Origin: Eledone cirrhosa
Lineage: Eukaryota
Assembly: GCA_964016885.1 (NCBI GenBank)
Contig: OZ024745.1
Location: 96,100,001-96,164,000 of the forward strand
Reading direction: 5' to 3'
Length of the DNA stretch: 64,000 nt
Part shown: in pieces, positions 3,551 to 64,000 of the stretch
Layout of the letters: the number at the start of each line of letters is the position of its first letter
Numbering within the stretch: the first letter of the stretch is position 1
The notes under the pieces: model-generated
What the model was told of the DNA's origin: nothing
Seen by the model: only the letters and a program-made list of their open reading frames with translations
Databases searched by the model: none
Translations under genes and position numbers: made by a program

Positions 3551-3726
3551 ATGTTTAATCCAGCATTGATAATTTCACTATTCCTCCTATAATACCTGGT
3601 AAATACTGTAAAGCATGCAAATAATACTCCACTATTACAATAATTTTTATTCTGAAGATAGGACTGTGAAAGCATTGCAACACTTATATATTTAGGAGTA
3701 CTATTGTTCCAAAACCAAATATAATA

Positions 3727-4082
3727 ATTGTTTCTACTTTTGGCACAAGGCCAAATATAATAATAATAATTGTTTCTACTTTAGGCACAAGGCCAGCAAT
3801 TACCCAGTGCATTGCTGGTACTTTATTTTATCGACCCCGTAAGGATAAAAGGCAAAATCAACCTCAGCAGGATTTGAACTCAGATCGTAAATATAATAAT
3901 TGTTTCTACTTTAGGCACAAGGCCAGCAATTACCCAGTGCATTACTGGTACTTTATTTTATCGACCCCGTAAGGATGAAAGGCAAAGTCAACCTCGGCGG
4001 GATTTGAACTCAGATCGTAAAGGGACGTAACTATGCTGGAAAGCATGGCGTCCGACCCTCTACCGATACTGCCAATCCACCG
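3727..4082 (-). mobile_element. Head-to-tail stack of SINE family A (two truncated copies and one full copy) separated by (AAT)n
   Basis: A box TGGCAGTATCGG and B box GAGTTCAAATC on the minus strand; 3' ends repeated at about 3727, 3768 and 3900. Confidence 0.8.
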
Positions 4083-4104
4083 TAAATATAATAATAATAA
4101 TGAA

Positions 4105-6899: not shown

Positions 6900-8175
6900 T
6901 TTCTGAATTTGTTTAGCAAGATTCTTTATCTGAAATCGTGTGTTGAAACCGATATTGTTATACTTTGGGAGGGTCATGTTGCCAATAAGAAACACACGCA
7001 CCAGTTGCTTTCACTTCAATTTAATTTATTATATATTTATAAATTTACAAATTTATAAATTTCTGGTTGGTTGGTTGGTTCCACAACCAGATAGTTGTTT
7101 ATATATATATAGTCATAGTTCTTTCGTCACACACTCTGTGACCTCTTCAGTGACTGGGGATTTCTTTCTTCGTTTCTGTGCCTTTCCTTTCTTCTATCCT
7201 ACGCCATTTTGTTTGTGTGTGGGTTGCGTGCTCAGTTTGCGCATGCGCCACATCCGGGTGTCTGTGTGTGTTTGTGTTCATTTTTCTATTTTTCTATTTA
7301 TATTTTTCTATTTGTTTGTTTATTTATTTATTTATTGTTGGTTGGTTGTTTGTTCTATGTGTGTGTGTGTTTTCATTTTGTGTGTGTTTTCAATTGTAAG
7401 TTATTTGTTCTATGTGTGTGTGTGTTTTCATTTTGTCCTTAATTGTAAGTTGTGATGTTGCTGTTCCACTCATATTTTCTATTTAATTTTGGTTTTAATT
7501 CTTTTATGCTTACTGCCTCTGTAATTTGCCTAAACATTGCGTCTTTCTTGTGTGTGGATTCTATTTTTATTTCTATGCTCTCTAATTTACCCTGTGTTCT
7601 ATCTTAGCATGTTGGTAGAGCACAGATGATTCTTTATTATCTTGGAGGTCTCGCCAGTGTTCATTTATTCGTTCCCCTATACTACGAGCTGTCTCACCTA
7701 TGTACACTATATTTTTGTTTCTACATTGTCCTTCAGTACATCTTATGCTATATACTACATTTCTAGTTTTACAGTTAATATGGGGGCTTATTTTACAGGT
7801 TATACATTTCTTATCTATACATGAGGGTCTTTGGAACGGGTATGTCTTGCTAATAAGTGTTTTTACGGAGGTACCAGGTCTTTCTACTATCTTAATATTG
7901 AGATTATGTTTCTTTAGGGCCCTTCTAAATTTGTAGGCTAGTTCGCCTCTAGGGGTTGTATTGATGAACATTACACTCTGGTATTTATTGCTATCATACC
8001 ATGAGTTTATTCTATTGACCTTGTTCTTAGTTCTTTCTATTCTATTCCAAAATTTGCTCCTATACAAGGGGCAGGTCCCATTTATGTCATTATTTACCAT
8101 TTTTTCCCATTTGGTTCTGGCTCCTTTATACACTCTGATTCTATCTCTCTGATTGTAGCCAGAGAACTGGCAGAG
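6900..8175 (-). mobile_element. Penelope-like element, 5'-truncated (C-terminal GIY-YIG endonuclease plus pLTR)
   Basis: ORF 7582-8184 has CxxC...VVYSIRC...YIGETARSIGERINEH; continues after a 1-bp frameshift as RQITEAVSIKELKPKLNRKYEW to about 7460; hammerhead motif lies downstream. Confidence 0.85.
7111..7155 (-). ncRNA. Minimal type-I hammerhead ribozyme
   Basis: AGUCA CUGAAGA G GUCACA-GAGUG-UGUGAC GAAA GAAC UA UGACU: intact core, 5-bp stem I, 6-bp stem II, 1-bp stem III. Confidence 0.8.
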
Positions 8176-8237
8176 AAGTTGCAATATCGGAAGGAGACCT
8201 TACTCTTGGGATTGCCCTCGTACATACATACATATAT

Positions 8238-9894: not shown

Positions 9895-11890
<1,996 letters not shown>

Positions 11891-12399: not shown

Positions 12400-12400
<1 letters not shown>
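12020..12400 (+). mobile_element. R4/Dong-like LINE 3' fragment, decayed, followed by (AAT)n
   Basis: Translation YKDLEIEMTRI...IEALGMIK resembles the RLE C-terminus of the element at 24600-24820. Confidence 0.6.
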
Positions 12401-12444
<44 letters not shown>

Positions 12445-12445
<1 letters not shown>

Positions 12446-15400
12446 TTTTCTTTATTAACCACAAGGGTTTACATAAAGTAGACATTAAGGACAGTACAGG
12501 ACAATACAGGACGGTACAAATGGGCATTTCTGCGTGTAAAAAAAACAGAGGATGAAATAAAATAACAAAGAAAAATTCCCCAATAGGGGGGAGACTTCCG
12601 AGGGACATTTGTGGAGAAAGCCCATTAAAAGACCACAGTGGCCCTGACCACTAGGGCAAGTGCCCTCTCCCAGTTTTCCACCTTTAATTTACAGACACAT
12701 ACTCAGAGAAGGCCCATTCATTCGGGCCATACTTGCTTCTCTCACCCATCTTTCAACAAAATGCTGGGAAGAGAGCACTTGCCTCTTTACCCTGATTTTC
12801 CTTTTCAGATGAAATTTGAAAAAGTTAATCAGGGCATCACCGAAGAGGTAAGTGCTCGTCTTCAGCCCTTTCAAACGTGTCCACCATACTATCTCTTTCG
12901 CCATGGCCACCAGACAGATAAAAACTGCCTGCCCTTCCCGGCTAAAGGAAGAGGGCGGGGCAATCCTCATGATGGACTCAGCTGATAGCTGGACCCGTCC
13001 TACACGTGACAGCAGGTGTTCAACATAAACCCACAAGTCAGCAATGCTCGGACACTGGACGAGTGCGTGCAGGACGGTTTCGTCGCCCTGTGCGCATCTC
13101 GGACATGCCCGGCTGACGGCACCTCCATGCCTGTAGAGTTTATCCCGAACTGGCAAGGCTCCTCGGTAGCACTGCCAGGCCAGGGATTTCTGGAAGTTGT
13201 CCATAGGCCCCGGCCCGAAACTCCTTCCGAAGAGATTGGCTAGTTGATTTTCGTCGACGCCTAGAGTTTCTCCAAGTATGTCGTCGCTCTTCCCCTCCAC
13301 TAACCCTCTATAGAACGACAAGGTGGAGTTTCCACCGATCACATTGCCCAATTGGTCGGGGGCTGTGAGCACCTGAAGACATTCCAGTCTCCAAGCGCTC
13401 CCTCTCGGTCTTCGCTTGACCCAGGACTGCAGCTCCGTCAGGGAGACGAGCTGGGGAAAAACGTGTCTAGCAAACGGCGACCACACCTGATCACCGTCGA
13501 GGAAGAGGTGGAGATGTCGTAGCCTGAGCGCGTGTCTGCGCATCATCAGTCACGGCATGCCCAGACCTCCACGCAGCGGGTGTTGATGCAGATGGACCAC
13601 CTGACCATCGGAGCGCGTCCCTTCCACAAAAAGCGAAAGAGCAAACGCTCCAGCGCAGTCAGGCGGGGCTTAGGACAAGGTACGACGGTCAGGCGGTAAT
13701 AGATGATGGACGCGATGTACGCGTTAGCCACCTCCGCTCGACCTTTCAGGGATAGCTTCCTCTCCGCCCATTTCTGGGTGAGAGAAGCCACCCTGCTCAT
13801 GACCTCGTCCCAGTCTTTGTCCGTCTGGATGTCCGGACCGAACCAGACCCCTAGCAATTTAACCGGTCCGTCCGTCCAGCACCCGACGACGCCATTGGAT
13901 GGCATGGACCTGCCTCTCCAGGTGCCGAGCTGCAGGCCCACTGACTTTTCCTGGTTGATCATTGCTTCTGTCACCGCTTCGTATTCTCTTAGTGTAGTGC
14001 CGATCGCCTCGATGTGTTTGGCGTTCGACACCACTACGCATCCTAGTTCGCGCGGGACCCCCTCAACGTCTCCAGTTTGTGCAGTAATGGCTCGAGAGTC
14101 AATACGTACAAGAGGGAAGAGAGGGGACATCCTTGGCGGACCAAGCGCATGATGTTGAACGGTTCCGAAAGGTGACAGTTCACTCTCACCACAGAGCAGA
14201 TGTCGCTGTGCATGGCAGCGATCCAGCCTCTGACGACGGGCCCAAAGCCAGCCGCCCTCAGGACTGACGCTAGGTAACGATAGTCGACCCTATCGAAAGC
14301 TTTCGACTGATTTAAATTGATCAAGGATCCACCCGTGCCAGGTTCCCTAGCTACCCTCTCTACGATGTATCACATGAGGTGGAGGTGTCGTGGATGGATC
14401 TGTCGGGAATGGCGCATGTCTGCGCCTCTCCCACCAGACCACCAACGACAAGCGCCAACCTCTTTGTTAGTACCTTGGCCAAAATCTTGAACTCTGTGTT
14501 TAGCAGAGTTATGGGCCTGATATTATCTATGTTATCCCCCTTGTTTGGATCCTTTCTGAGCAGCGCCAGAGCTCCTAAAGTCCATCCCTCGACCCGGCCC
14601 GTCGCTGCTCCCGAACAGCTGAGCGAAGTGTCGCTGAAAATCTTCACACATTTGCCCAGGATCGAGTAGCATGCGCCTGTCGTGGTCCACCAAAGACCGG
14701 ATCGTGGCTTTGTTGCCACGACACGCCTCCGCCACTTGGGCCCATTGAACGGCTTTCGTCCCCTCGTGTCTGAGAGCACGCACCCTAGCTCTGACAACGC
14801 AGCCTTCGTGCTTTGCATTGAAGAATTGGTCAGGGGCCAATTTCGCCGCAAGCACGTCGGTCTCGATGCCTTTGCTAAGCGCCTCGTCTAATTTTCTAAC
14901 TAGTTCTCTCTCTGCTCTATTTTTTTCTATTGCTAAAGCCTTACTAAACCTAATGGATTCTATTCTAATCGCTCTTTTCAGAGCAAACCACCACTTGTTG
15001 TTGACGACGGCCCCCGTCAACGCCCGCTTAACTAGTTCGCTAATCCGGTCTCTGTAGACCTTGCGCGCTGGTAAGGACGCGTTTAGCTTCCAGAAGCCGG
15101 GTCCTCGTCTATGAAGCCTATCTAAGTCAACCACACAGATCACGAATTTGTGGTCTGTGTAGCTGACTATCTTGAATTGTGGACAGCCTATGCTAGACCT
15201 ATCTATTTCCCTACAAAATACTCTATCTAGATATGATCTGGATGACCCTATACGATTTGTCCAAGTCCACATTGGCACATTCGGGAAATCCATCGGTACC
15301 TGTCAGACAGTTCCAAACGCCTGAGCAGGTTCGTGAGGCTCTTGCACCCTCCTCTCCTATCCGCTAATCCCACACAGTCCCAGCGTCCATCTAAGATCCC

Positions 15401-18015
15401 GTTCCAGTCGCCCACTAACACTAAAGAGCAGGACGTTCCAAGAAAGGTCTCCAGATGCCGGAAGAAATCAGGCCGCCCTGCTCCTGTCGAGGCATAGACG
15501 GCCACTAGCCTGAAAGCTTGCCCGTCTCCACTGGTCACGTCCAGCACCACCAACTTACCTTCTTGGTCCAGGAAGATGGCCCGTATGGCGAGATCCAAAC
15601 CTCTCCGAAAAAGCGCAGCAACTCCTCCCCCCGTTCCAGGACGGCTGGGAGATGCGTACACATTGTAGCTGCCGAAGATCGGTGCGAAAGCCCGTGCTTC
15701 GGAGATTCTGGTCTCGCTGATGGCCACTACATCTATGTTTAGTGACTTGAGGTCTTTGAGCAGGTGGCCCTGCTTCCATGACGACCCCAAGCCATGCGCA
15801 TTTATGCTGCCTATTCTGAGTGAGGTCATGTTGAAATGGAGTGGAAAAGATGGGAAAGACCACTTACCTTACTTCTCGTAGAGGAAGGATGGTTTGTCCA
15901 TCCTTTTCACTGCTTGTGGCCTCCTCCGGAAGGATGTCCTTATAAATCCTCCTGGAGAGTGCTTGTCGGAAGTCTCCGATGTCTTTGAGGAATTTTTGTT
16001 TTCGTGTCGTGTACATTTTCTGTGTGATGCGAGTGATTTGTATGTGTGGAGGTGGTGTGAACTTTTGGGTTGTTGTGTAGTCTTTTTCTGTGATGCTGCT
16101 CTTGTATTGGATGTAGTGTAATAATTGGTTGTTGTTCAAATTTAATGCTGTGTAGTGTGTATCGTTTTGGTTGTTTTGTTTTGTTTGCGTTTGTTGTGGG
16201 TTTGTTTCTGTTTCGCTTTTTGGTGACTTTTGTGGTGTTGGAGATGGTGGTGTTGGGGTTAATGATCGTGATGGTGTTGGTGTTTGTGGTGATGGGGTTG
16301 GTGATGCTGGTGTGGATGGTAGCATATCTGTCCTAACTTTTTTGTTTGATAGTTTATTTGTTTCCCTCTGTATTTTGTTTTTGAAGGGGGAGGGAAGAGA
16401 ATTTTTTCTTTTTTGGTTTCTTTTTTTCTTTTTTCCTGATACCGTTTCCCACTCCTCGTCGTCACAATCTGTCTCCAGTTGTGACAGGCCAGGGAATGGA
16501 ATATCCTCCACAGGCGTTGGTTTTGGCTGTGGCTTGGTGGATGGTGTAGGCGCTGGTGCTAGTTCTGGTGCATTGGGTGGTGGTGGTGTTGGTTGTGCTA
16601 CTGTTTCTGGGGTTGTTGCTGTTACAGTTGCTTCTGTTGTTGCTGCTACAGTTGTTGCTGCCATCTCTGCTGCTGGTGGTGTTGATGGTTGAGTCACTGG
16701 GGTGGGTAAGAGAAGTGGCCTCAACCTTTTAGCCTGGGGGCAGAAAGCCCTTAGGTGGGTTCCTTCACCACAAACGACACACCTAGGCCTTCTACCCTCG
16801 ACGATTACGGTGAGGTGGCTGCCGTCACTGAGGTCTATTACCTCTGGGATCTCCTCAATGCTTTTTTGGTCCGCTTGGATCAGGAGCTCCATCCCAGATC
16901 CGAACGAGTTCTCCTGCTTTTCTTTCGCTCGCTATTTCGATTATCTTGGTGTGGCTTTGATGCCAGCGAAGACGGCAGCTATTAGTCAGGGAATTTCGAT
17001 GGCCGGTGGAACGTGGGTCACCCTGATCTTCACGAGTCTCTGGCCACAATAGCTTGGGACGAGTATGAAGTAGTCACTTCTTAATGGGGCCATGGAGTGT
17101 TCTCTGGCCTCCTGTGGTGTTTCAAAGAACACGTCCACGGTTCCATATTTCTGCCCACGTCTGATGTGGGTTTTTTTTGCCCACACATGTCCCAAAGGTT
17201 TTGGGATTTGGGACTCGGATGCCCGTTCCACTCGGCGCGATTTTATGTTAATCGTCCGATAAGACACGGTGCATAGGCGCCGATGCTCATTTTATTAGGT
17301 GTGGGGGGGGGGGGGGGGGGGCTGACCCTGTACCCATCTTTCTTTACCATTTTTTTGGCTTCTTCTAATTCCTCCTGAGTTACCTGGAATGCTTCGCACT
17401 GTTTTGCTACTCTGGCAAAATTCAGGGTGGTTTTCTTAATTTCATTGTTGCTGTTGTTGTTATCGTTATTTTTGTTATTGTTAATTTTAGTTTCAGTTGT
17501 GGTGTTGGTGGCGTCAGTGGTGTTCGGTGTGGAAGAATTCATTTTGGTTGAATTCATTTCGATATTACGAGTTAATTTATTTTTTTCTTTTGTTTCTGTT
17601 GTCGCTGTGATGGTGGTTGGGGTGGCGGCTTTAATACCTGCAGTCATTGGTAATGGCGGGAAATGAATGTCTGCCTGAGACAAATTTAAAATATTGCTAC
17701 TGCTTATATTTTTAGTGTTGGCAAACGTAGTAATATTTACAATGGCGGTGTCGGTGTGAGGTGTTAGTTTGTGAGGAAGGTGTGACTCTGGGTCATCCAT
17801 GATTTTTTTCAAATAAATTTTTGTTTGATAATTATAAAAGTTTAAATTTTATAATTAAAAGTTTAAATCGTTTTGAGTGTCCTTTTCAGAAAACAATGTA
17901 TGTGCACTTATATACAGTTAACAATAAAATGTTTCCATAAATGGCAATTTTAAACAACTGAAAACTACAAACCTTTGCGGAGCTCACGATGATATGATTT
18001 ACTACGTAGGTCGCC
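12445..18015 (-). mobile_element. Tx1/L1-clade LINE copy 1, near full length and disabled
   Basis: ORF1 fragments 15864-17812 with zinc knuckle CVVCGEGTHLRAFC; ORF2 fragments show APE (GSINAHGL, VGDWN, SYLDR, YTDH), RT (RPITLLN, KAFDRV, VRQGCPLS) and CPRC..ETVLHALVQC; frameshifts present; (ATT)n tail. Confidence 0.92.
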
Positions 18016-18033
18016 AATAATAATAATAATAAT

Positions 18034-20484
18034 GCTTTCTTTATTAGCCACAAGGGTTTACACAAAGTAGACATTAAGTACAGTACAGGACAATACAGGA
18101 CGGTACAAAAGAGCATTTCTGCGTGTAAAAAACAAAAAAAACAGAGGATGTAATAATAGAACAATGAAAAAATTCCCCAATGGGGGGGGGGAGACTTCCG
18201 AGGGCCATCGTGGAGAAAGCCCACTAAAAAGCCACGGTGACCCTGACCACCAGGGCAAGTGCCCTCTCCCAGTTTTCCACCTTTAATTTACAGGCATATA
18301 CTCACAGTATGTCCACTCACGCGGGCCATTCTTGCCTCTCTCACCCATCTTTCAACAAAAAGCTGGGAAGAGAGCACCTCCCTCTCTACCCTGATTTTAA
18401 TACATGACGGACGCGATGTACGCGTTAGCCACCTCCGCTCGACCTTTCAGGGATAGCTTTCTCTCCGCCCATTTCTGAGTGAGAGAAGCCACCCTGCTCA
18501 TCACCTCTTCCCAATTTTTGTCCGTCAGGAAGTCCGGACCGAACCAGACCCCTAACAATTTAACTGGCCCGTCCATCCAGCGCCCGACGACGCCGTTGGA
18601 GGGCATGGACCTGCCTCTCCGGGTGCCGAGCTGCAGGCCCACCGACTTTTCCTGGTTGATCATTGCTCCTGTCACCGCTTCGTATTCTCTTAGTGTGGTG
18701 CCGATTGCCTCGATGTGTTTGGCGTTCGACACCACTACGGTGACATCTTCCGCATATGTTGACACGAATCTTCCGCATCCTAGTTCGCGCGGGACCCCCC
18801 TCAACGTCTCCAGTTTGTGCAGTAATGGCTCGAGAGGGACGAGAGGGGACATCCTTGGCGGACCGATGATGTTGAACGGTTCCGAAAGGTGACCGTTCAC
18901 TCTCACCACAGAGTAGATGTCGCTGTATATGGCAGCGATCCAGCCTCTGAAGACGGACCCAAAGCCAGCCGCCCTCAGGACTGCCGCCAGATAATGATGG
19001 TTGACCCTATCAAAAGCTTTCGAATGATCTAAATTGATCAAGGAGCCACCCGTGCAGGTTCCCTAGCAACCCTCTCCACGATGTATCGCATGAGGTGGAG
19101 GTTGTCGTGGATGCATCTGTCGGGAATGGCGCATGTCTGCGCTCTCCTACCAGACCACCAACGACAAGCGCCAACCTCTTTGCTAGCACCTTGGCCAAAA
19201 TCTTGAACTCTGTGTTTAGAAGAGTTATGGGGTGAAATTATCTATGTTATCCCCCTTGTTCGGATCCTTTTTCAGCAGCGCCACCGCTCCTCGGCTCACA
19301 GAGATGGGAATTCTCCAGTTCTGTTGCCAGTTGCAGTAGACGTCCGCCAAGAGGCCTCCGAACAAGTCTGGCATCTGTACGTAAAGTTCATAGGGCAAAC
19401 CATCCAAACCAGGCGATTTACCCCTTGTGCAGCCAGTCATTGCCTCCCATACTTCAGCTGCTGTTATCGGCTTTTCGCAACAACACCGCCTCAGTGGCCG
19501 AGAGCTGCGGCAGTCCGTCAAGGTAGACACTAAAGTCCATCCCTCGATCCGGCCCGTCGCTGCCTCCGAATAGCTGAGCGAAGTGTCGCTGAAAAGCTTC
19601 ACACATTTGCCTGGGATCGAGTAGCATGCGCCCGTCGTGGTCCACTAGAGACCGGATCGTGGTTTTGTTGCCACGACACGCCTCCGCCACTCGGGCCCAT
19701 TGAACGGCTTTCGTCCCCTCGTGTCTGAGAGCACGCACCTTAGCTCTGACAACGCAGCCTTCGTGCTTTGCATTAAAGAATTGGTCAAGGGCCAATTTCG
19801 CCGCAAGTACGTCGGTCGCGATGCCTTTGCTAAGCGCCTCGTCTAATTTTCTAACTAGTTCTCCCTCTGCTCTATTTTTCTCTATTGCTAAAGCCTTACT
19901 AAACCTAATGGACTCTGTTCTAATCGCTCTTTTCAGAGCAAACCACCACTTGTTGTTGACGACGGCCCCCGTCAATGCCCGCTTAACTAGTTCGCTAATC
20001 CGGTCTCTGTAGGCCTTGCGCGTTGGTAAGGACGCATTTAGCTTCCAGTAGCCGGGTCCTTGTCTATGAAGCCTATCTAAGTCAACCACACAGATCAGAG
20101 CGGGATACTAAAGAGCGGGACGTTCCAAGAAAGGTCTCCAGACGCCGGAAGAAATCAGGCCGCCCTGCTCCTGTCGGGGCATAGACGGCCACTAGCCTGA
20201 AAGCTTGCCCGTCTCCGCTGGTCACGTCCAGTACCACCAACTTACCTTCTGGGTCCAGGAAGATGGCCCGTATGGCGAGATCCAAATCTCTCCGAAAAAG
20301 TGCCGCAACTCCTCCCCCCGATCCAGGACGGCTGGGAGATGCGTACACATCGTAGCCACCGAAGATCGGTGCGAAGGCCCGTGCTTCGGAGATTCTGATT
20401 CTCGCTGATGGTCACCACATCTATGTTTAGCGACCTTAAATCTTTCAGCAGGTGCCCCTGCTTCCAAGACGACCCCAGGCCATG
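18034..20484 (-). mobile_element. Tx1/L1-clade LINE copy 2, 5'-truncated and internally deleted
   Basis: Colinear and highly similar to copy 1; deletions at about 18399 and 20100; YAED in place of YADD. Confidence 0.92.
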
Positions 20485-21399: not shown

Positions 21400-24300
21400 A
21401 TTCACCAATCCTCGATATGAGTGCTTAAATGTCGAACCTAAACAGTTCGAATAACGGTGAAGTGGAGACTGGAATGTCATGTGACAGACTCTCGCCCAGC
21501 AGGTGCTCCCTGGCCCAGCAGCAGGAACATGGCTGTCATCCAAATACTGCTGGTGTTAGAGGAAGAGGAAGAAGGAAAGGGACCAGAACCAACTGGACGA
21601 AAGAATTGAATAGAGCTGTTATGCAATGTTACCTGAAGAGTAACCCCAAGGAAAAAGGCTATAGGAAACGGATGCATAACATCTGGAACGAGATTGGTCA
21701 ATTTAAATTAGATGAAAAAAATTGGCCAGGCAGGCTCGGGTAATAAGAACTAATGGGTGGATAAGCGAGCTGGAACTGGAGGAACTGAGCAGAGAGATTA
21801 GGTTGGAAATGGAGAGTGGAGTATGCCAGGCAAATGAGCCAGTGGGAAATGAAGGTGAAGAGGTTGAGAGAACGGAGGAACCATCCGAAGCAGACAATGA
21901 TCTGAATGCTGAAATAAATAATACCTGGAACAAAGATACGGCCATTGAGGAAATGAATGCTGACGGGCTAGGACAAGATTTGGTTGATATCCTAAACTTA
22001 GTGGTAGATGAAATGAACCTAAGATTTGTAGACAGGAAAAAGTTAAAAGAAACAACAGCTAAGGTAAACAAAGTCATCCCATACCTTGAGGCGAGGAGCT
22101 TTCACCAGTACAACATATCCTCAAAGCAACAGCAAATGTGGTGAGGAAATTACTTGGCATAAAAGTGAGAGGAAACAACAAACAAGAAAGATCAGAACCT
22201 TGGTGGAAGAAACGACTGAATGGTCAAATCAGGGAAATGAGAAATGACATTGGAAAGCTTGAGTCCCTACTGAATGGGACACTAAAAAACATAGACACTA
22301 AAAATAGACTGGAAATAAAGTACAAAACTAGGAGGAAAAAGCTAAATATTATCATAGAGGAACTGAAGCAACGCATTGTAGCAAAGAGTGCAAAAATTAG
22401 GCGATACGAGAGCAGAGTCAGTCAGTATAGACAGAACCGCATATTTGACAACAACCAGATGTTGTTTGGACAGCTTGAAGGGAAAGAAAGAGGCAACGAC
22501 TTGATCCCTGAGGCGGAACAAACTAAGACATTCTGGAGAGGAATATGGGAGCAGGATGTTAAACATAATGACCAGGCAGTGTGGATTGAGACAGTACAAA
22601 AGGAGATTAGTGAACAGGCACACCAACAAACTGATTTGAGTATCACAGTTAAAACTCTTAAGGGGCAGGCCAAAAAACTAACCAACTGAAAATCACCAGG
22701 CCCAGATGGTGTGCAGGAGTATTGGATTAAAAATATAACATCCCTCCACCCAAAACTGACAACCATGTTCAATGACTGCTTGATGTCAGGTGAGGTACCA
22801 GAGTGGTTGACAAAAGGTACCACAGTTCTGGTAATGAAAGACTGAATCAAGGGTAATGATGTTACCAACTATAGACCTATCACATGTCTGTCCGTAATGT
22901 GGAAACTGTTAACAAGCATTGTGTCTGAGGAAATCTACCATCACCTCCACTCAAACAACTTGTTACCGGACGAACAGAAAGGATGCCGAAAGAAGTCCTG
23001 TGGTACAAAGGACCAGTTACTTATTGATAAGATGGTAATGAGGAATTGCAAAAGGAGACACACTGGTCTTGCCATGGGATGGATAGACTACAAAAAGGCA
23101 TTTGACATGGTGCCTCAATCTTGGATCACCAAAAGCCTAGAGATCTTCAAGGTGGCAGATAACATCAGACAGTTGTTGGGCAAAATTATGAAGTCCTGGA
23201 AAACAGAGTTAACATCAGGTAGAGAATCCTTGGGAGGAGTGAAGATCAAGAGAGGTATCTTCCAGGGAGATAGTTTGTCCCCTCTGCTGTTTGTCCTTGC
23301 CCTGATGCCCCTGACCATTATACTGCGAAAAGTGAAAGCAGGATACAAATTGGGAAAGGGAGAGCTTACCATCAATCACCTCCTCTTCATGGACGATCTT
23401 AAGCTCTTTGGGAAGAGTGAGAAGGAGTTGGATGTTCTTGTTGACGCTGTCCATATTTTCAGCAATGATATATGTATGGAATTTGGTATTAGTAAGTGTG
23501 GAGTCCTAGTGATGAAGAGGGGTAAATTGAGCAGAAGCAACGGAATCCAGGTACCAACAGGTGAGATGATAAAGGAAATTGACACTGAAGAAGGATACAA
23601 ATATTTAGGTGTTCTGGAGGCTGATGACATCAAGAACAAAAAAATGAAGGAATTAATAAGATCTGAATACATTCAGAGAGTAAGGAGCGTATTAAAATTA
23701 CATCTGAACAGTAGGAATGCCATAAGTGCAGTAAATTTCCGAGCTGTGTCTATTATTAGATACAGTGCGGGAATTCTGAGATGGAATGTTGCTGAACAAA
23801 AAGAAATGGATAGGAAGACTAGGAAGCTATTGACTATCTACAACATGTTCCACAAGAAGAGTGATGTCGATAGACTCTACTTAAGGAGATCTGAAGGTGG
23901 AAGAGGTCTTATCAGCATAGAGGACTGTGTTCAGATGGAGAAAAATAACCTAAACAAATACGTGAGTGATAGTAGGGAGCCAATGCTCAGAATTGTACTG
24001 AAGGAGAGGACAATAGATCAGGGGATGTCCAGGAGGAAATAACAACAAGGAGAAAGAGCAACCTTCATGAAAAATCCATTCATAGTACCTTCTTTGAGAA
24101 AACTGAATTCAGAGATCCACAGACATGGAACTGGTTGAAAAGAGGAGACCTTAAAAAGGCTACAGAAGGAATGCTAATGGCTGCACAAGAGCAGGCCCTC
24201 AAAACGAAGTGGCTGAAACACCATACTTACAAGGAGGAGGCTAGCCCACTGTGTAGGATCTGTGGAGAGAGAGAGGAGACTGTGGCTCACATTGTATCCG

Positions 24301-24900
24301 AGTGTAAACACCCAGCCCAGACTCACTATAAGGGCTGGAGACATGAAGTGATGGGCAGGGTGATCCACTGGCACCTATGCAAAGTAAACAACTTACCACA
24401 TTCTGAGAAGTAGTATGAGCATAAGCCAGAGTCGGTGATAGAAAACGATCAGGTGAAGGTGCTGTGGGATTTTAGGATACAGACGGACAAAAAACTGGAA
24501 CACAATAGACCTGACCTGGTGGTTTTGGACAAGGAAAAAAGATCATGCCTGATTGTGGATGTGGCCTGCCCATTCAACACGAGAGTGCAAGAGAAGGAGA
24601 GGGAGAAAATTAACCGATACCAGGACTTAAAGTGGGAGGTAAAAAGGATTTGGAACTGCCATGAAGTCAAAGTGGTCCCGATTGTCATAGGCGCACTAGG
24701 TACTATCTCAAAGAGTTTCCAAGGATGGTTAAAGAAAATTGGCCCCGCCCCGCTTTTTGAAACACTTCAAAAGGCATGCTTGCTGGGAACAGCAAGAACC
24801 CTCCGATACGTCCTGAATATCTGAGGCTGCAGGTAGTGGCTTTATATTCATTTCAACAAACTTTCCAGTTAACTAACATCAATGACTGAGACTCAAAATC
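21400..24900 (+). mobile_element. R4/Dong-clade RLE LINE, near full length and disabled
   Basis: RT motifs [36 protein letters not shown] and FMDDLK; CCHC motif CRIC..ETVAHIVSEC; endonuclease RPDLVV..DVACP..EK..RY; internal stops; (AAT)7 tail at 24901-24921. Confidence 0.92.
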
Positions 24901-24918
24901 AATAATAATAATAATAAT

Positions 24919-25704
24919 AATTACCCAGTGTATTATTGGTACTTTATTTTATCGACCCCATAAGGATGAAAGGCAAAGTTAACCTCAGCGGGATTTGAAC
25001 TCAGAATGGCAAGGGCCGTAACTCTATGCGTCAAAGCATGGCGTCTGACCCGCTACCGATACTGCCAATTCACCGCTAAATAATAATTGTTTCTACGTTA
25101 GGCACAAGGCCAGCAATTACCCAGTGCATTACTGGTACTTTATTTTATTGACCCCATAAGGATGAAAGGCAAAGTCAACCTGGGCGGGATTTGAACTCAG
25201 ATCGTAAAGGGACGTAACTATGCTGGAAAGCATGGCGTCCATCCCTCTACCAATACTGCCAATCCACCGCTCCTAATAATAATAATGGTTTCTTATATAG
25301 GCTCAAGTCCAGCAATTTTGGGAGAGGGGAAGTCAGTTAAATCGACCCCAGTGCGTGACTAGTACTTTATTTTATCGACCCCATTAGGATGAAAGACAAA
25401 GCTAACCTTGGCTAGATTTGAACTCAGAACAGAAAGGGCCATAACTCTATGCTGTAAAACATAGTGTCTGATGCTCTACTAATACTGCCAATCCACCACC
25501 TTAATAATAATATTAATTGTTTCTACTATTGGCACAAGGCCAGAAATTACCCAGTACATTACTGGTACTTTATTTTATCGACCCTGTAAGGATGAAAGGC
25601 AAAGTTAACCTCGGCGGGATTTGAACTCAGAATGGCAAGGTCCGTAACTCTATGCGTCAAAGCATGGCGTCCGACCCTCTACCGATACTGCCAATCCACC
25701 GCCC
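24919..25704 (-). mobile_element. Four head-to-tail SINE family A copies separated by (AAT)n
   Basis: Units at about 24919-25077, 25086-25272, 25286-25500 (variant) and 25517-25704. Confidence 0.85.
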
Positions 25705-25719
25705 AATAATAATATTAAT

Positions 25720-29880: not shown

Positions 29881-30571
29881 GTAGCTAAAAAAGTATTGGG
29901 ACAAAGCTTACCCCAACTTAAACCATTTCACAGTGGAATTTTTTCCCCCAAATTACTGTCACAAATAGTAATTGTTATTCAAATTCACAAAGCTGCCATA
30001 GGAGAGAGTGATCAAATGTAAATCACTTTCACATCACCATCACTCCCCTTCCCTCTTTCATTATCTATCATTATCTACATAACCACATTCCTTCCTCTCT
30101 CTCTATCTATGTATGTCTTTTACTTTTTAATATATTCCACTTCCTCTCAGATGTTTTTCTCTTGTGTTCAATTACATAGTATGTATCTCATTCAGTTTTT
30201 TTTATATGAATATGGAAATATAAAAAAAAAAAAAATGAATATAAAAAGATTGCTGCTTTGTATTTAAAAATAAATTCTATACAAACCTTCTCCTTGCAAT
30301 GATGAACATTGATATACATAGTTCTGTGGATATTCATTTTTCTGTTTCTAAGTATAACTCAGACACGTGCAGACAACTCACATTTATATATATATTTAGC
30401 AAATATAGTTGTGATTATAGATGCAGTATGTCCAAATGTTTGAACAGTTCAGTTTACAGTGATCAAGTCCTCGGTTCAATCCAACAAAGGGACACCTTGG
30501 ACAAGTGTCATTTACCATATCCTAGGTTTGGCCCATTTCAACTTTCTTACAATACCTGGTTTTTATATATG

Positions 30572-30660
<89 letters not shown>

Positions 30661-30661
<1 letters not shown>

Positions 30662-31764
30662 AAAAAATTAGAAATAAGAGGGATCAGATGTTGTTTACTC
30701 GAGAGAAGGCTACGTTGGTATGGTCACATGATGCGCATGAAAGACGACAGCTGTATAACAAAGTACAGGGCAATAAAGATAGACGGTAGCTACGGAGTAG
30801 GCAGACCCAGAAAAACCTGGGACGAGCTGATAAATTCCGACCTCACACACTTACACCTCTCCAAGACAATGTCACTGGACCGAGACCTTTGGCGGTACTC
30901 AGTAATAGAGAAGACCCGCCTTACCTAAATACAAAGTAAAACCTACTACAGTCAGTAGGCATCTCTAACAAAATACACCCCCGTCCCACCACCCCCACCC
31001 CATCCACACCGCCCCTTTCAATGTAAAGTTATGTTGGTGCCACAACATCCAGGCCGAAACAAATGAGATCATGTAGGTGTCACGACAAAAAAACACACAG
31101 TCCACGCTGTAATGTGGCTGTGTAGGCAACACGGTAAAAACCTCCCAGCCCCACACTGTAAATGTGGTTGGTGTTAGGAAGGGCATCCAGCTGTAGTAAA
31201 CCCGCCAGATAGTCCACGCTGTAATGTGGCCGTGTAGTCAACACGGCAAAAACCTCCCAGCCCCACACTGTAAATGTGGTTGGTGTTAGGAAGGGCATCG
31301 CATAGGACTGTCTGGCGGGTTTTCTACAGCTGGATGCCCTTCCTAACACAACCACATTTACAGTGTGGGGCTGGGAGGTTTTTACCGTGTTGCCTACACG
31401 GCCACATTACAGCGTGGACTGTGTGTTTTTTGTCGTGACACCTACACAATCTCATTTGTTTCGGCCTGGATGTTGTGGCACCAGCATAACTTTACATTGA
31501 AAGGGGCGGTGTGGATGGGTGGGGGTGGTGGGACGGGGGGTGTTTTGATAGAGATGCCTACTGACTGTAGTAGGTTTTACTTTGTATTTAGGTAAGGCAG
31601 GTCTTCTCTATTACTGAGTACCACTAAAGGTCTCGGTCCAGTGACATTGTCTTGGAGAGGTGTAAGCGTGTGAGGTCGGAATTTATCATGTCGTCCCAGG
31701 TTTTTCTGGGTCTGCCTACTCCGTGGCTACCATCTATCTTTATTGCCCTGCACTTTGTTATACA
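30661..31764. mobile_element. RTE LINE 3' end arranged as a tail-to-tail inverted repeat
   Basis: RRLRWYGHMMRM...GRPRKTW at 30661-30928; arms at 30752-31215 and 31305-31764. Confidence 0.85.
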
Positions 31765-31949: not shown

Positions 31950-34736
31950 AAGATCAAAAGATGGTTAAAAGAGTTCCAAGTATTTTATTATGCACATTTC
32001 AAAAACAAATATCATCATGGGATGATATCTGCGTTTTCATCAGATAAAATAGGGATACATGATATGAAGCTTATAAAACACTTGTGAATAGTGAAGTTTT
32101 AAATCAACATATGAAAAATAATTTAAGATTGATGTATGAGATTGGGAAAAAGTGAGGGGGTGTGTGGAAAAGGTAAGGAAGATGAGGAGATGAGAGTAAA
32201 GAATGGTGGGGGAGGAGTATAAGAAGGAAGGATGAGAGAGGAGGAGAGATAGGTGATAGAGAGAGAGAGATAGCCTTTACAACTGAGAAAAAAATATATA
32301 TTGTCTCACAGAGAGAAGTTAAAAAGCCGTTGGAAGATAATAGATAATTTAAAAGAATTTGAAATTAAAAGTTAATGAGGTTTATGCATGAAGAGAAAAA
32401 AGGGATTAAGAATAATATTAAATTAAGGTTTGTATATTGTGCGAGGAAAAGAAATTATTAATATGTATTATTAAAATAAAAATATTAATGTTATTAAGGA
32501 TATAATGTGAAAAGAAGTAAAAGAATGAATGAGTTATGAATTTAGAGGAATTAGTTAGTGTTTAAGTTTGTTTTTATGTAATGTAATATGTGTGCGTAAT
32601 ATATGTACGTAAATAGTTTGTTTAAAAATGAGCGCAGAAAGCAAAGAAGAAAAGAATGTTTAAGAAAGAAAATATCTAACATAAAAAAAATATATATGTT
32701 TACGAAATATTTTCTAATGGTAATAATATAATATATTAAAAGAAATTAGTTAGGGTTTAAGTTTGTTTTTATGTATTGTAATATGTAAAAGTCAAACGAG
32801 CATGAACGGAAGAAATAAGGAATTTAAGGAAGAAAAATCTAACGTAAAAAAAAATGTTTATGTTTACGAAGGACTATTAAAGGTAATACTGTAATGTATT
32901 TAAAAAATAATAATTTTTATGGTCAATGATATGAAGAAAGATGGAAGAATGGATAATGTTGTGGTGAGTAATAATAAGAATTGAAAAGTAGTTAGGAAGA
33001 AAAAGTACAGATTAGAGGTTAGAAATTAGAAAGAAGAGAGGAAGAAAGGAAAGTGATAAAGAGGAATGATATAGAATGAGTAACTTGTATTATATAATAT
33101 ATAATAAATAATATTGAAATAAGGTAGAAAGATGGGTATATTTTTAAAAGATATATAAGCCTTTGAGAAAAAGGATTTTAAACTAGTAAGGTATTAGATA
33201 TTAGCTGTATACTTTATGGAATGTTCTGTGGAATTTATGCAAGCAGAGAGAAAATAAATTAGTGCGTCTATTTATTATAGAATTGAAATTAGATATAATG
33301 GTAAATTTTTCAGATAGGCAAAGATTACATGTTCTGGCTAGGGAGGCATTCAAGTAGGGGGAGACAGAACAAACTTTTCTCCAAGAGATGTTATAGTTAA
33401 TATTTTTGTCTTTCAAGGACCATATGAGTTCTGAGAGTGCCGTGTTAGTTCTCTTAAGTTGGTATTTAAAAGACGAATTGTGATTATAAAATCTAGCTTT
33501 GAAGGAGGTGGAAGTGGAACCGAAATAGGTAAAGGAATTGGTATCAGTTATAACCTTACATTCATAGACTAAGCTAAGTTTTTATCAAGACAATGGTTAT
33601 TGAGAGGACATTTAGTTCTTAAAAGAACTAACACGGCACTCTCAGAACTCATATGGTCCTTGAAAGACAAAAATATTAACTATAACATCTCTTGGAGAAA
33701 AGTTTGTTCTGCCTCTCCCTACTTGAATGCCTCCCTAGCCAGAACATGTAATCTTTGCCTATCTGAAAAATTTACCATTATATCTAATTTCAATTCTATA
33801 ATAAATAGACACACTGATTTATTTTCTCTCTGCTTGCATAAATTCCACAGAACATTCCATAAAGTATACAGTTAATATCTAATACCTTACTAGTTTAAAA
33901 TCCTTTTTCTCAAAGGCTTATATATCTTTTAAAAATATACCCATCTTTCTACCTTATTTCAATATTATTTATTATATATTATATAATACAAGTTACTCAT
34001 TCTATATCATTCCTCTTTATCACTTTCCTTTCTTCCTCTCTTCTTTCTAATTTCTAACCTCTAATCTGTACTTTTTCTTCCTAACTACTTCTCAATTCTT
34101 ATTATTACTCACTACAACATTATCCATTCTTCCATCTTTCTTCATATCATTGGCCATAAAAATTATTTTTTTTATTTAATACATTATAGTATTACCTTTA
34201 ATAGTCCTTCGTAAACATAAACATTTTTTTTTACGTTAGATTTTTCTTCCTTAAGTTCCTTATTTCTTCTTGTCATGCTCGTTTGACTTTTACATATTAC
34301 AATACTTAAACCCTAACTAATTTCTTTTAATATATTATATTATTACCATTAGAAAATATTTCGTAAACATATATTTTTTATGTTAGATATTTTCTTCCTT
34401 AAACATTCTTTTCTTCTTTGCTTTCTGCGCTCATTTTTAAACAAACTATTTACGTACATATATTACGCACACATATTACATTACATAAAAACAAACTTAA
34501 ACACTAATTCCTCTAAATTCATAACTCATTCATTCTTTTACTTCTTTTCACATTATATGCTTAATAACATTAATATTTTTATTTTAATAATGCATATTAA
34601 TAATTTCTTTTCCTCGAACATATTATTAAACCCTTCAATATACAAACCTTAATTTAATATTATTCTTAATCCCTTTTTTCTAATGCATAAACCTCATTAA
34701 CTTTTAATTTCAAATTCTTTTAAATTATCTATTATC
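31950..34736. mobile_element. Penelope-like element (Neptune-like GIY-YIG) as a head-to-head palindrome
   Basis: Minus copy encodes CPLNNHCL...VYECKV...YFGSTSTSFKARFYNHNSSF...CNLCLSEK; arms at 32336-33458 and 33618-34736. Confidence 0.88.
31981..32051 (-). ncRNA. Type-I hammerhead ribozyme with CpG-decayed stem III
   Basis: UAUUUUAU CUGAUGA [16-position stem II with 15 paired, loop CCAU] GAAA UGUGCA UA AUAAAAUA. Confidence 0.75.
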
Positions 34737-61274: not shown

Positions 61275-62637
61275 GTTTTAAATATACTTAACTGTGTGTG
61301 TGTGTACACGTACACACACACACAGTGAAGGCACGTGGCTGAGTGGTTAGAGAATAACACCAACCACATTTACATGTGTGTGTGTGCATGCATACAGACA
61401 GACACAAATACATGCATATATATAAACTTGTTGGATCTTTGGTAGTTCCAACAATGAGTGTTCCAGTTGTTTGACCAATGGAGCAGCCTCCTCATGAAGT
61501 TAATAAGCAACTGGTTGAGTATTCCAAACACATGTGTACCTTTAATGGAATTCTCAGAGAGATTTAGTGTGACACAGAACAATAAAACTGGAAACCATAT
61601 TTAATTATTTGTCCTGTAGATGGTGAAAAAGTTGGAATGTAGCAAAGGGTAATCCTTGAGAGGGGGTAGGGCATAACAGGCTTCTCCAAATTGCTCTGTC
61701 CTCTACTTCAATCCCTCATCCACCCTCATCTCAATTTTAACCATGTATTTTTTGGTCTGTCTCCTCTTCTGCTGTCTTCTAAATTTCTTTTCATTACTCT
61801 TTTTACCCTATCACTTTCATCCTTCCTTAACACATGACCGAGCCATCTCATTCCATTTCACTTCACATCATTCACTACATGCTTTATTCCCATCATTCTC
61901 TGCAATTTATTATTTCTTTTTCTCTCTCCTTCAGTGATACTCTGTTCCTCAACAGAACCATTCATATTTCCATTCTTACAACAGTAACATTGTTGGGGAC
62001 TAAAATTGAATACTTCCTTATAATTAAAGGACTACTTATATATCGACAGTCGCTCAACTTTCGTCAAATCAGACCAAGGAAACAATGTTTCCGTTGGTCT
62101 TTCCAATTGCTAATACTATCTATCAGTCACAACTCTAGGAAGAAGGAGCAACATGAAATAAAGTGTTTTGCTCAAGGACATAGAATCCTGGTCCAGGAAT
62201 CGAACTCACAACCTCACGATTACGAATCCAATTCTCTAACCACTGAGCCACATACCTTCAAATACTTAAATTTATATATATGCACTCTTGTTTCTGTAAT
62301 TTATTAAAACCAAAGCAGGTGTTGAACAATTACAGCATTTTTCTATAGAAAGTTTTCGAGGAAGTGCAGACAATTTTTTACTTATCCTTGTATACATATA
62401 GATAAATAATAGTTTCTGAATTAGGCACAAGGCCAGCAATTTTAGGGGAGGAGAGAGTGCATTACTCGTGCATTATTTTATCGATCCCAAAAGAATGAAA
62501 GGCAAAGCAAACTTCGGTGGGATTTGAACTCAGAATGTAAAGACATGTAACTATGTCACAAAGCATATTGTCCGATGCTTTACTGATACTGCCAATCCAA
62601 CACCCTCAAATAGATGAATAATAAAAATATAACTTAC

Positions 62638-63229: not shown

Positions 63230-63825
63230 CACATACTTAAATATGGAATGTTACACGATGGGACCCCGCCACAGCCCCGGCAGACAGGATGGAGAAGGCA
63301 TTTCCCCGGAGGATGGCAAGGGAGATGCGCTGAAAAAGCCACTCTATCTCGCGGGGTTCACACCTGCAGCTAGCCAGCTCAGCGCCTATGGTGGTGAGTA
63401 AGGAGGTAGCCCTAGGGCCGAGGACATCAGAAGTCTCCACTGCCAGAGGTACAACCGCAAACCTGTCGGAGAATGACTGGTATTTGAGGAGTTTGGCCAC
63501 CTCAGCTCGACATGCAGCAGAACCTGGGTTAGTCGCAGACTGCACCAGCTTGCAGCTGCAGAAAGTGTTGGTGCAAGTAGCACCCCAGACGAGGGGTTTG
63601 CCACCGCGGAACAGGAAGATGGTCATGCCATCTGGCCTTTTGCCGTCCCCTCGGTCCAGCCCCACCGGCTCGAGCTGGGAAGGGTAGCCCGCAGCATGCT
63701 GGGAAGGGCAGCATGGCATGGAAGGCAGCCAGTACTGTGGCGACAGGAAAGTGGGTGGAGGCCGAAAGAGTCCACGGTGGATCCACAGCGACATTGGTGT
63801 GGCTCGCAGATCCGGAGGCCGAGAT
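63230..63825 (-). mobile_element. CRE-clade RLE LINE 3' fragment
   Basis: ORF 63237-63794 contains DGKRPDG, AE..K..KY, VPLAVET and LFQRISLAILRGNA; GC-rich; ends next to (TA)n. Confidence 0.8.
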
Positions 63826-64000
63826 TGATCTTAATATATTGTTCTCAAAATAAATAATATCAAAATTTCATAGATTTGATATTATGTGAGATATTATGTG
63901 AGATAAAGCCTTTACTGCAAAAATACAATAGTAAATATAGAGTAATGTAAATGTTAAAGGGTTAAAATCCATTGTTTAAAAGTTTAAACCCTGTCAACAT

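What the first reader, a model, noticed from the sequence alone, without database searches (positions are those of the whole stretch)
18016..18055. The commonest SINE shares its 3' terminus with the Tx1-like LINE: candidate LINE-SINE partnership
Seen in sequence: on the plus strand the Tx1 end reads aataat-gc-TTTCT-tta-TTAG-c-CACAAGG (18028-18055), and the SINE-A end reads aataat-tg-TTTCT-act-TTAG-g-CACAAGG (3895-3922). That is 16/22 ungapped identities at the same distance from the same (ATT)n tail, in the same polarity. Established: SINEs borrow the 3' end of the LINE that mobilises them. Inference: this tRNA-SINE is driven by a Tx1-clade element, a rarely described pairing, and inherits its target preference.
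Basis: partly seen in the sequence, partly recalled or inferred. Interest (0 to 1): 0.75.

Follow-up and report, generated by a model that had tools for sequence, protein, structure and literature searches.

The report
SINE rides ATT-targeting Tx1-like LINEs
This genome's commonest short jumping element ends in the same 22-letter signal (a predicted small hairpin) as a group of long jumping genes that land in ATT repeats, and it lands on the same ATTATT motif, so it likely borrows their copying enzyme, a tail-sharing pairing I did not find described for this LINE group.

Summary
The match is real: 16/22 here, 15/22 against typical copies; no shuffle of 20,000 reached it, and RTE, Dong and CR1 ends score 5-9/22. 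It covers only the last 22-27 nt. The same terminus is kept in five sister Tx1-like families whose UTRs otherwise diverged (84-88% versus 48-62%). Its core is a predicted hairpin with loop CUUGU; SINE-LINE differences are a swapped base pair and loss of AATAAA. SINE copies have about 16-nt target duplications starting ATTATT, share polarity and age range with the ATT-type families, and sit directly behind them in 16 of 82 loci (random 8 of 300). A sister family with the same hairpin uses (TATC)n; the SINE does not. Intact ORF2 copies are plentiful. Against: the SINE target is looser than the LINE's (ATT)3+, the hairpin is weak in full-length SINE RNA, the driving family cannot be singled out, there is no assay, and Tx1 membership lacks a reference tree. 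Tx1-driven SINEs are published (crocodilian SINEU) but without a shared tail. This scan noted the pairing repeatedly elsewhere in this genome. Host likely an octopod.

The parts
18034..18059 (-). 3' terminal signal of the upstream Tx1-like copy: stem arm, loop CUUGU (18050-18054), stem arm, AATAAA, GAAA, last base 18034
   Evidence: family profile
18016..18033 (-). (ATT)6 tail/target tract joining two Tx1-like copies head to tail
18034..20482 (-). Internally deleted Tx1-like LINE copy (endonuclease, linker/RT and 3' UTR pieces; 94% to an intact copy in ORF2, 87% in the 3' piece)
12445..18015 (-). Near-full-length, frameshifted Tx1-like LINE (ORF1 remnants, APE endonuclease, RT, zf-RVT) with the same terminus (loop 12461-12465); 93-95% to intact copies in ORF2 but with a different 5'/ORF1 module
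12400..12444 (-). (ATT)15 tail/target tract
11701..11767 (-). Severely 5'-truncated Tx1-like 3' end (loop 11717-11721)
3901..4082 (-). Full-length SINE-A copy: tRNA-like head, body, terminal signal (loop 3917-3921)
3771..3888 (-). 5'-truncated SINE-A copy stacked at the same site
3729..3752 (-). 24-nt SINE fragment made only of the terminal signal
3717..4095 (-). Four copies of a 12-nt ATTATT-initial target duplication (3717-3728, 3753-3764, 3889-3900, 4084-4095) bracketing the three SINE pieces
24919..25718 (-). Stack of four more SINE copies (short and long forms) behind an oppositely oriented Dong/R4-like LINE end

Best explanation
The SINE is likely copied in trans by the ORF2 protein of the (ATT)n-targeting Tx1-like LINE families, which is predicted to recognise a short 3' signal that both RNAs carry. 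Shown: the shared terminal 22-27 nt; its conservation across diverged Tx1-like families; compensatory base changes around a CUUGU loop; ATTATT-initial target duplications of about 16 nt; same-orientation stacking; overlapping ages; intact ORF2 copies. Inferred mechanism: a pol III transcript from the tRNA-like head presents the hairpin 16 nt upstream of a short AUUAUU; ORF2p nicks the AAT-rich strand, the freed 3' end anneals to AUUAUU and primes reverse transcription at a fixed register; a second nick about 16 nt away makes the duplication. Each insertion re-creates an ATTATT site, which would explain the stacks. The LINE's long (AUU)n tail would favour long repeats, the SINE's 4-6-nt tail any ATTAT(T) site.
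For: Terminus 15-16/22 to Tx1a, c, d, e versus 5-9/22 to RTE, Dong and CR1-like ends; Tx1b is 10/22 ungapped because of a 1-nt insertion, local alignment p=0.002. Between four Tx1-like families the terminus is 84-88% identical, the 120 nt upstream 48-62% (shuffled 50-51%). On 17 hand-picked ends 3 of 4 stem pairs change on both sides, covariation 0.415 versus 0.160 (0 of 500 shuffles; slid controls at most 0.158); RNAalifold predicts the same stem; majority sequences of 7 of 7 families fold it. SINE duplications found for 105 of 182 copies (mismatched-pair control 12 of 182); median 16 nt in the 89 non-pure-ATT cases; logo A-T-Y^ATTATT; where the two copies differ in the first 6 nt the 3' copy has the ATTATT letter 17 times, the 5' copy 6 times. 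ATTATT within 30 nt upstream: SINE 22 of 65, random 124 of 5000, Tx1a full-length 20 of 20; AATAAT (opposite polarity) 1 of 65. SINE directly behind ATT-type LINE ends in the same orientation 16 of 82, opposite 1 of 82, random 8 of 300. Tx1e has (TATC)n upstream in 12 of 15 and ATTATT in 0 of 15; none of 186 displayed SINE tails (of 214) is TATC-type. 20 of 20 fetched full-length copies have a 1195-1204 aa open frame and are 98-99.9% alike over the 5' part compared; young SINE copies are 96-100% alike. In zebrafish L2 the stem can be swapped while the loop is specific (PMC4176376, passages).
Against: Homology is short (22-27 nt; known shared tails run to about 80-100 nt per PMC3747384). The hairpin has only 3-4 pairs: probability 0.92-0.96 when the last ~40 nt are folded alone but 0.05-0.10 in full-length SINE RNA, and 0.0 in the 250-nt Tx1e UTR; it is absent from the minimum-energy fold of both single SINE copies tried and altered in the finding's own LINE copy; z-scores -2.1 to +0.2. 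The covariation rests on two or three family-level events; the count of doubly changed pairs is not above shuffles (123 of 500). The SINE target is looser than Tx1a/b: (ATT)3 upstream in 5 of 65 SINEs versus 15 of 24 Tx1a and 6 of 8 Tx1b; Tx1c only 2 of 10. SINE adjacency does not differ significantly between ATT-type and Tx1e loci (16 of 82 versus 1 of 19, p=0.18). LINE families were surveyed in 644 kb plus targeted searches, not genome-wide. No assay, no expression data.
Confidence: 0.8

Rival explanations
1. The SINE took its tail from an older Tx1-like ancestor, and Tx1-like enzymes still move it, but by tail-target pairing and endonuclease choice alone (relaxed, L1-like); the hairpin is a relic or serves the LINE's own 3' processing.
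For: Weak fold in full-length SINE RNA; part of the LINE motif is AATAAA, which could be conserved as a polyadenylation signal; crocodilian SINEU is moved by Tx1-Mar with no shared 3' end (PMC4494074).
Against: The SINE lost AATAAA but kept loop, pairing and spacing; both SINE forms (short and long) keep it; 24-nt and 60-nt insertions start at the same register.
Confidence: 0.1
2. A LINE not sampled here (another clade, or an unseen Tx1-like lineage with a plain ATTAT target) is the true driver; clustering with Tx1a-d only reflects a shared landing pad, as for the Dong element.
For: SINE target looser than Tx1a/b; Dong-like ends also follow 15 of 82 ATT-type LINE ends; survey incomplete.
Against: Six other LINE ends score 5-9/22; the CR1-like family with a superficially similar GGCC motif ends in a 10-nt repeat and sits in (TA)n in the 19 ends printed of 20 loci; Dong has opposite polarity; among 2,823 anchored sites only SINE and Tx1 ends reach 14/22.
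Confidence: 0.07
3. Chance or convergent similarity of A-rich ends next to ATT repeats.
For: Only 22 nt, partly A-rich; window length chosen after seeing the match.
Against: 0 of 20,000 shuffles; genomic null; the conserved stretch among Tx1-like families is exactly the shared one; matching duplications and polarity.
Confidence: 0.03

Closest known systems
SINEU / Tx1-Mar of crocodilians (Kojima 2015, PMC4494074; parts 2-4 of 5 of the text read)
   Same: SINE inferred to be moved by Tx1 elements from shared target preference and overlapping age; tandem insertion around a duplication.
   Different: SINEU has U1/U2 heads, a poly(A) tail and, per the paper, no LINE sharing its 3' terminus; target is a Mariner element. 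Here: tRNA-like head, shared 3' signal, ATT target.
Stringent pairs with a 3' stem-loop: UnaSINE/UnaL2, zebrafish ZfL2-1 and ZfL2-2 (PMC4176376, passages; PMC3747384, passages and tables section part 1)
   Same: Short 3' hairpin before a short repeat; stem exchangeable, loop fixed.
   Different: Those are L2-clade and assayed; here the LINE is L1/Tx1-group, the stem is only 3-4 pairs and untested.
Stringent L1-clade pairs: maize LINE1-1_ZM with ZmSINE2/3, Chlamydomonas L1-1_CR with SINEX-3_CR (PMC3747384 Table 1)
   Same: L1-group LINE sharing a 3' end, with compensatory changes in the maize case, with a tRNA SINE.
   Different: Plants and algae, homopolymer tails; Table 1 lists no Tx1 and no animal L1-group pair.
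Microsatellite-targeting Tx1 families Kibi (TC)n, Koshi (TTC)n and crocodilian (TTCC)n/(TTTC)n families (as described in PMC4494074)
   Same: Two-ORF APE-type LINEs inserted in a simple repeat.
   Different: Targets here are (ATT)n and, in a sister family, (TATC)n; no SINE partner is given for those families in the passages read.
Octopus tRNA SINEs of Ohshima and Okada 1994 (OR1, OR2 cited in PMC4824008 and PMC4758252; original not seen)
   Same: tRNA-derived SINEs of an octopod-type genome.
   Different: OR1/OR2 are cited as CORE-SINEs; I could not compare sequences, so whether this SINE is one of the three published families is open.

Membership tests
L1/Tx1 group LINE | ORF2 with APE endonuclease, RT and C-terminal zinc domain | tested here: met
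   1139-aa ORF2: Exo_endo_phos, RVT_1, zf-RVT above cut-off; best solved relative human L1 ORF2p, E 6e-53, R2 far weaker
Tx1 clade | RT groups with reference Tx1 elements rather than L1 proper | tested here: inconclusive
   No reference tree could be built. A coral protein auto-named 'Transposon TX1' scores 267 bits on 501 aa against 183 bits for human L1 on the whole ORF2; the name is an automatic label
Tx1 clade | Target-specific insertion in a repeat | tested here: met
   (ATT)3 upstream of 19 of 20 full-length copies; sister family (TATC)n 12 of 15
Tx1 clade | ORF1 with CCHC zinc knuckle (feature recalled) | tested here: met
   CX2CX4HX4C visible in the 699-aa ORF1; no Pfam hit above cut-off
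tRNA-derived SINE | Short, non-coding, dispersed, with target duplications and 5' truncations | tested here: met
   185 nt; 105 loci in 580 kb; duplications in 105 of 182
tRNA-derived SINE | tRNA-related head with A and B boxes | tested here: inconclusive
   Head aligns with 12 of 16 tRNA-like genomic hits at z 3.3-5.1, at the D- and T-arm boxes with about 25 extra nt between; ARAGORN calls only at 80% threshold with mixed isotypes; none at default or by Rfam. Parent tRNA not identified
tRNA-derived SINE | Pol III transcription | not testable with these tools
   No RNA data available
Stringent SINE/LINE pair | Shared 3' terminal sequence | tested here: met
   15-17/22, limited to the last 22-27 nt
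Stringent SINE/LINE pair | Conserved 3' stem-loop with compensatory changes | tested here: inconclusive
   Covariation and local folds support it; full-length SINE folds do not
Stringent SINE/LINE pair | Same 3' repeat, insertion signature and overlapping age | tested here: met
   ATT unit and polarity shared, SINE looser; both have copies 98-100% alike and older ones
Stringent SINE/LINE pair | ORF2p needs the 3' signal and moves the SINE in trans | not testable with these tools
   Needs a retrotransposition or binding assay

The most novel reading that the evidence does not exclude
An animal Tx1-group lineage recognises its RNA stringently through a minimal CUUGU hairpin 16 nt from the tail, with RNA recognition (hairpin, shared by all sister families) uncoupled from target choice (ATT versus TATC); a roughly half-million-copy tRNA SINE uses the ATT branch by carrying only this ~25-nt signal plus AUUAUU, making it a natural minimal cargo tag for microsatellite-targeted insertion.
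Probability: 0.5. Interest if true: 0.68.

Novelty: new variant of a known kind. Interest (0 to 1): 0.5.

Why it matters
It would name the engine behind the most abundant SINE of a likely octopod genome (about 2.5% of sampled bases, roughly 540,000 copies by extrapolation from 580 kb). It bears on an open question raised in PMC3747384, whether L1-group LINEs were ancestrally stringent, by adding an animal Tx1-group case. Sister families with one hairpin and two targets, plus many intact ORF2 copies, make RNA recognition and target choice separately testable.

Tried and rejected
CR1-like family as partner: local score p=0.016 followed up; different tail and (TA)n context; rejected. Dong/R4-like LINE: shares the ATT tracts but in opposite orientation and 6-8/22; rejected. 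RTE families: 5-6/22, (GAT)n or (TA)n-type tails; a second short-repeat family resembles their 3' end instead. An apparent non-LINE element with the motif (L033) proved to be a remnant of an older Tx1b-like subfamily. First junction count for Tx1c (1 of 15) was unreliable because alignments broke at indels; redone by chaining (3 of 10). One of four Tx1e rows was a false pattern hit. Rfam and ARAGORN at default found no tRNA in the SINE. No RNA holder listed. Laying contigs of four public runs gave nothing usable at the hairpin positions, which lie near the stretch ends; low-depth traces in two other organisms were not interpreted. Seven paper searches found no description of a tRNA SINE sharing a 3' end with a Tx1 element; Repbase, Dfam, subscription papers and supplements (for example repeat libraries of PMC13282606) were not seen and could hold it.

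Full report
Observation. Both elements lie on the minus strand. The LINE end at 18034 belongs to an internally deleted copy (18034-20482) that sits head to tail in front of a second, near-full-length copy (12445-18015); a third 60-nt end lies at 11701. The SINE at 3901-4082 is the first of three stacked pieces, separated by four copies of one 12-nt duplication; the last piece is only the terminal 24 nt. The genome is 3.0 Gb and the best named protein relative is from Argonauta (73%), so the host is likely an octopod (inference).

Is it chance? In 30 genomic LINE copies the terminus is nearly invariant and 28 carry T at -14, giving 15/22 for typical copies. No shuffle of 20,000 reached 15-16; identity falls to 8/33 upstream; 3 RTE, 2 Dong and 1 CR1-like ends give 5-9/22. 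Of 2,823 ATTAT-anchored sites in 58 stretches of 10 kb taken at fixed coordinates, the 60 that reach 14/22 are 3 LINE copies and 57 SINE-type ends.

The LINE. A protein search scored 148 hits, most with open frames of 1,000-1,204 aa, several in tandem at about 6.05-kb spacing. Twenty fetched copies all had a 1195-1204 aa frame and were 98-99.9% alike over the 5' part compared. ORF2 has APE, RT and zf-RVT domains, its closest solved relative is human L1 ORF2p, ORF1 has a CCHC knuckle, and 19 of 20 copies have (ATT)3 upstream. It is an L1/Tx1-group, microsatellite-targeting LINE; Tx1 membership is likely but no reference tree was built. A 2026 octopus annotation lists 13 recently active L1-Tx1 families (PMC13282606, passages).

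What is shared. Sister families turned up (Tx1b, c, d, e), 57-83% identical to Tx1a in ORF2 pieces. Their termini are 84-88% alike while the 120 nt upstream are 48-62% alike, near the shuffled 50-51%. The conserved part is what the SINE shares. Anchored on the loop CUUGU, the flanks pair in every family: C-G, C-G, A-U, A-U in Tx1a; C-G, C-G, G-C in b-e; C-G, G-C, G-C in both SINE forms. So two of the SINE-LINE mismatches are base-pair swaps, and three fall in the LINE's AATAAA, which a pol III SINE would not need (inference). On 17 ends that I chose, covariation is 0.415 against 0.160 (0 of 500 shuffles) and at most 0.158 for slid controls, but the number of doubly changed pairs is not above shuffles (123 of 500), and only two or three independent events underlie it. 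The fold is robust locally (0.92-0.96 for 62 SINE copies, 0.78-0.97 for four LINE families) but not in full-length SINE RNA (0.05-0.10), where an upstream helix competes; neither of two single SINE copies shows it at minimum energy. The hairpin is therefore predicted, not established.

Insertion signature. Duplications were found for 105 of 182 SINE copies with a 3' end (all loci then held, including LINE-centred ones; control 12 of 182). In the 89 that are not pure ATT the median is 16 nt, the site reads A-T-Y, nick, ATTATT, and mismatches in the first six letters favour ATTATT in the 3' copy 17 to 6, as expected if a short AUUAUU in the RNA anneals to an imperfect target. In the unbiased sample ATTATT lies upstream of 22 of 65 SINEs (random 124 of 5000), the reverse motif of 1 of 65. 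Truncated Tx1a and Tx1b have ATTATT upstream in 19 of 24 and 7 of 8, (ATT)3 in 15 and 6; Tx1c in 3 and 2 of 10; Tx1e in 0 of 15 but (TATC)2 in 12, with duplications of 9-21 nt. The SINE follows the ATT branch: no TATC-type tail among 186 displayed of 214. It lies directly behind 16 of 82 ATT-type LINE ends in the same orientation, 1 in the opposite; random 8 of 300; Tx1e 1 of 19 (difference to ATT-type not significant, p=0.18). The SINE is clearly less demanding than Tx1a/b ((ATT)3 in 5 of 65); a short versus long RNA tail could explain this, but that is inference.

Age. 46 near-full-length SINE copies diverge 2-20% (median 6%) from their majority line, in visible subfamilies; a selected young set is 96-100% alike. 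Tx1-like pieces in the same sample range from 99.8% to below 80% to the nearest young reference. The ranges overlap; this is not a landscape.

SINE head. It aligns to 12 of 16 tRNA-like genomic hits at the two box regions (z 3.3-5.1); ARAGORN calls appear only at lowered threshold with mixed isotypes. tRNA origin is likely, parent unknown.

Comparison. Tx1-driven SINEs are published for crocodilians, from shared targets and without a shared 3' end (PMC4494074). The 2013 table of SINE/LINE pairs has no Tx1 pair and L1-group pairs only in maize and Chlamydomonas (PMC3747384). Loop-specific, stem-tolerant recognition is shown for zebrafish L2 (PMC4176376). Passages of PMC4824008, PMC4758252, PMC8967140, PMC5381603 and PMC3531059 named no partner for octopus SINEs. 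Repbase, Dfam and supplements were not seen. Eight earlier notes of this scan on other pieces of this genome reach the same reading; I had formed mine before and they are not independent support.

Verdict. Real feature; partnership with the ATT-type Tx1-like group likely (0.8); which family drives which SINE subfamily, and whether the hairpin is required, remain open. New variant of a known kind; interest 0.5.

Noticed in passing
window 15864-18015 versus L141:1656-3969: The window's LINE and the youngest intact copies share ORF2 (93-95%) and 3' end but have different 5' UTR/ORF1 modules, suggesting an ORF1/promoter swap within the family.
   Followed up: partly
L065:4086-4458, L179-L198: A young sister family (about 99% alike) keeps the same terminal hairpin but has a (TATC)n tail and target.
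   Followed up: yes
G000 C1:234594884-234620268 and similar: Head-to-tail arrays of up to five intact copies at about 6.05-6.3 kb spacing.
   Followed up: no
window 21429-24901 (+): Dong/R4-like LINE ending in (AAT)n; such ends follow 15 of 82 ATT-type Tx1-like ends in opposite orientation, so two unrelated LINEs share the tract.
   Followed up: partly
window 30245-31400, L063, L076, L124:8252-8547: RTE-like LINEs whose long 3' UTR carries a 48-nt repeat and ends in (GAT)n; the second commonest short repeat matches this 3' region and may be their SINE or truncated copies.
   Followed up: partly
L064:8568-9752, L227-L246: Young CR1-like family with a 10-nt terminal repeat, inserted in (TA)n.
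   Followed up: partly
L213, L215-L223: Ten near-identical tRNA-like genes with one body but different anticodons (Ala, Val, Thr, Asp); possibly an amplified tRNA pseudogene family, and the best match to the SINE head among the 16 hits.
   Followed up: no
window 25271-25512, 62405-62624: A longer, older SINE form with an extra ~25-30 nt segment before the terminus; its end matches Tx1-like families at up to 17/22.
   Followed up: partly
P0003-P0061: The closest non-cephalopod ORF2 relatives (about 50% identity) come from unnamed metagenome assemblies.
   Followed up: no
window 7582-8199, 33201-33875, 63237-63830: Penelope-like GIY-YIG fragments and a probable CRE-type LINE end (label recalled).
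   Followed up: no
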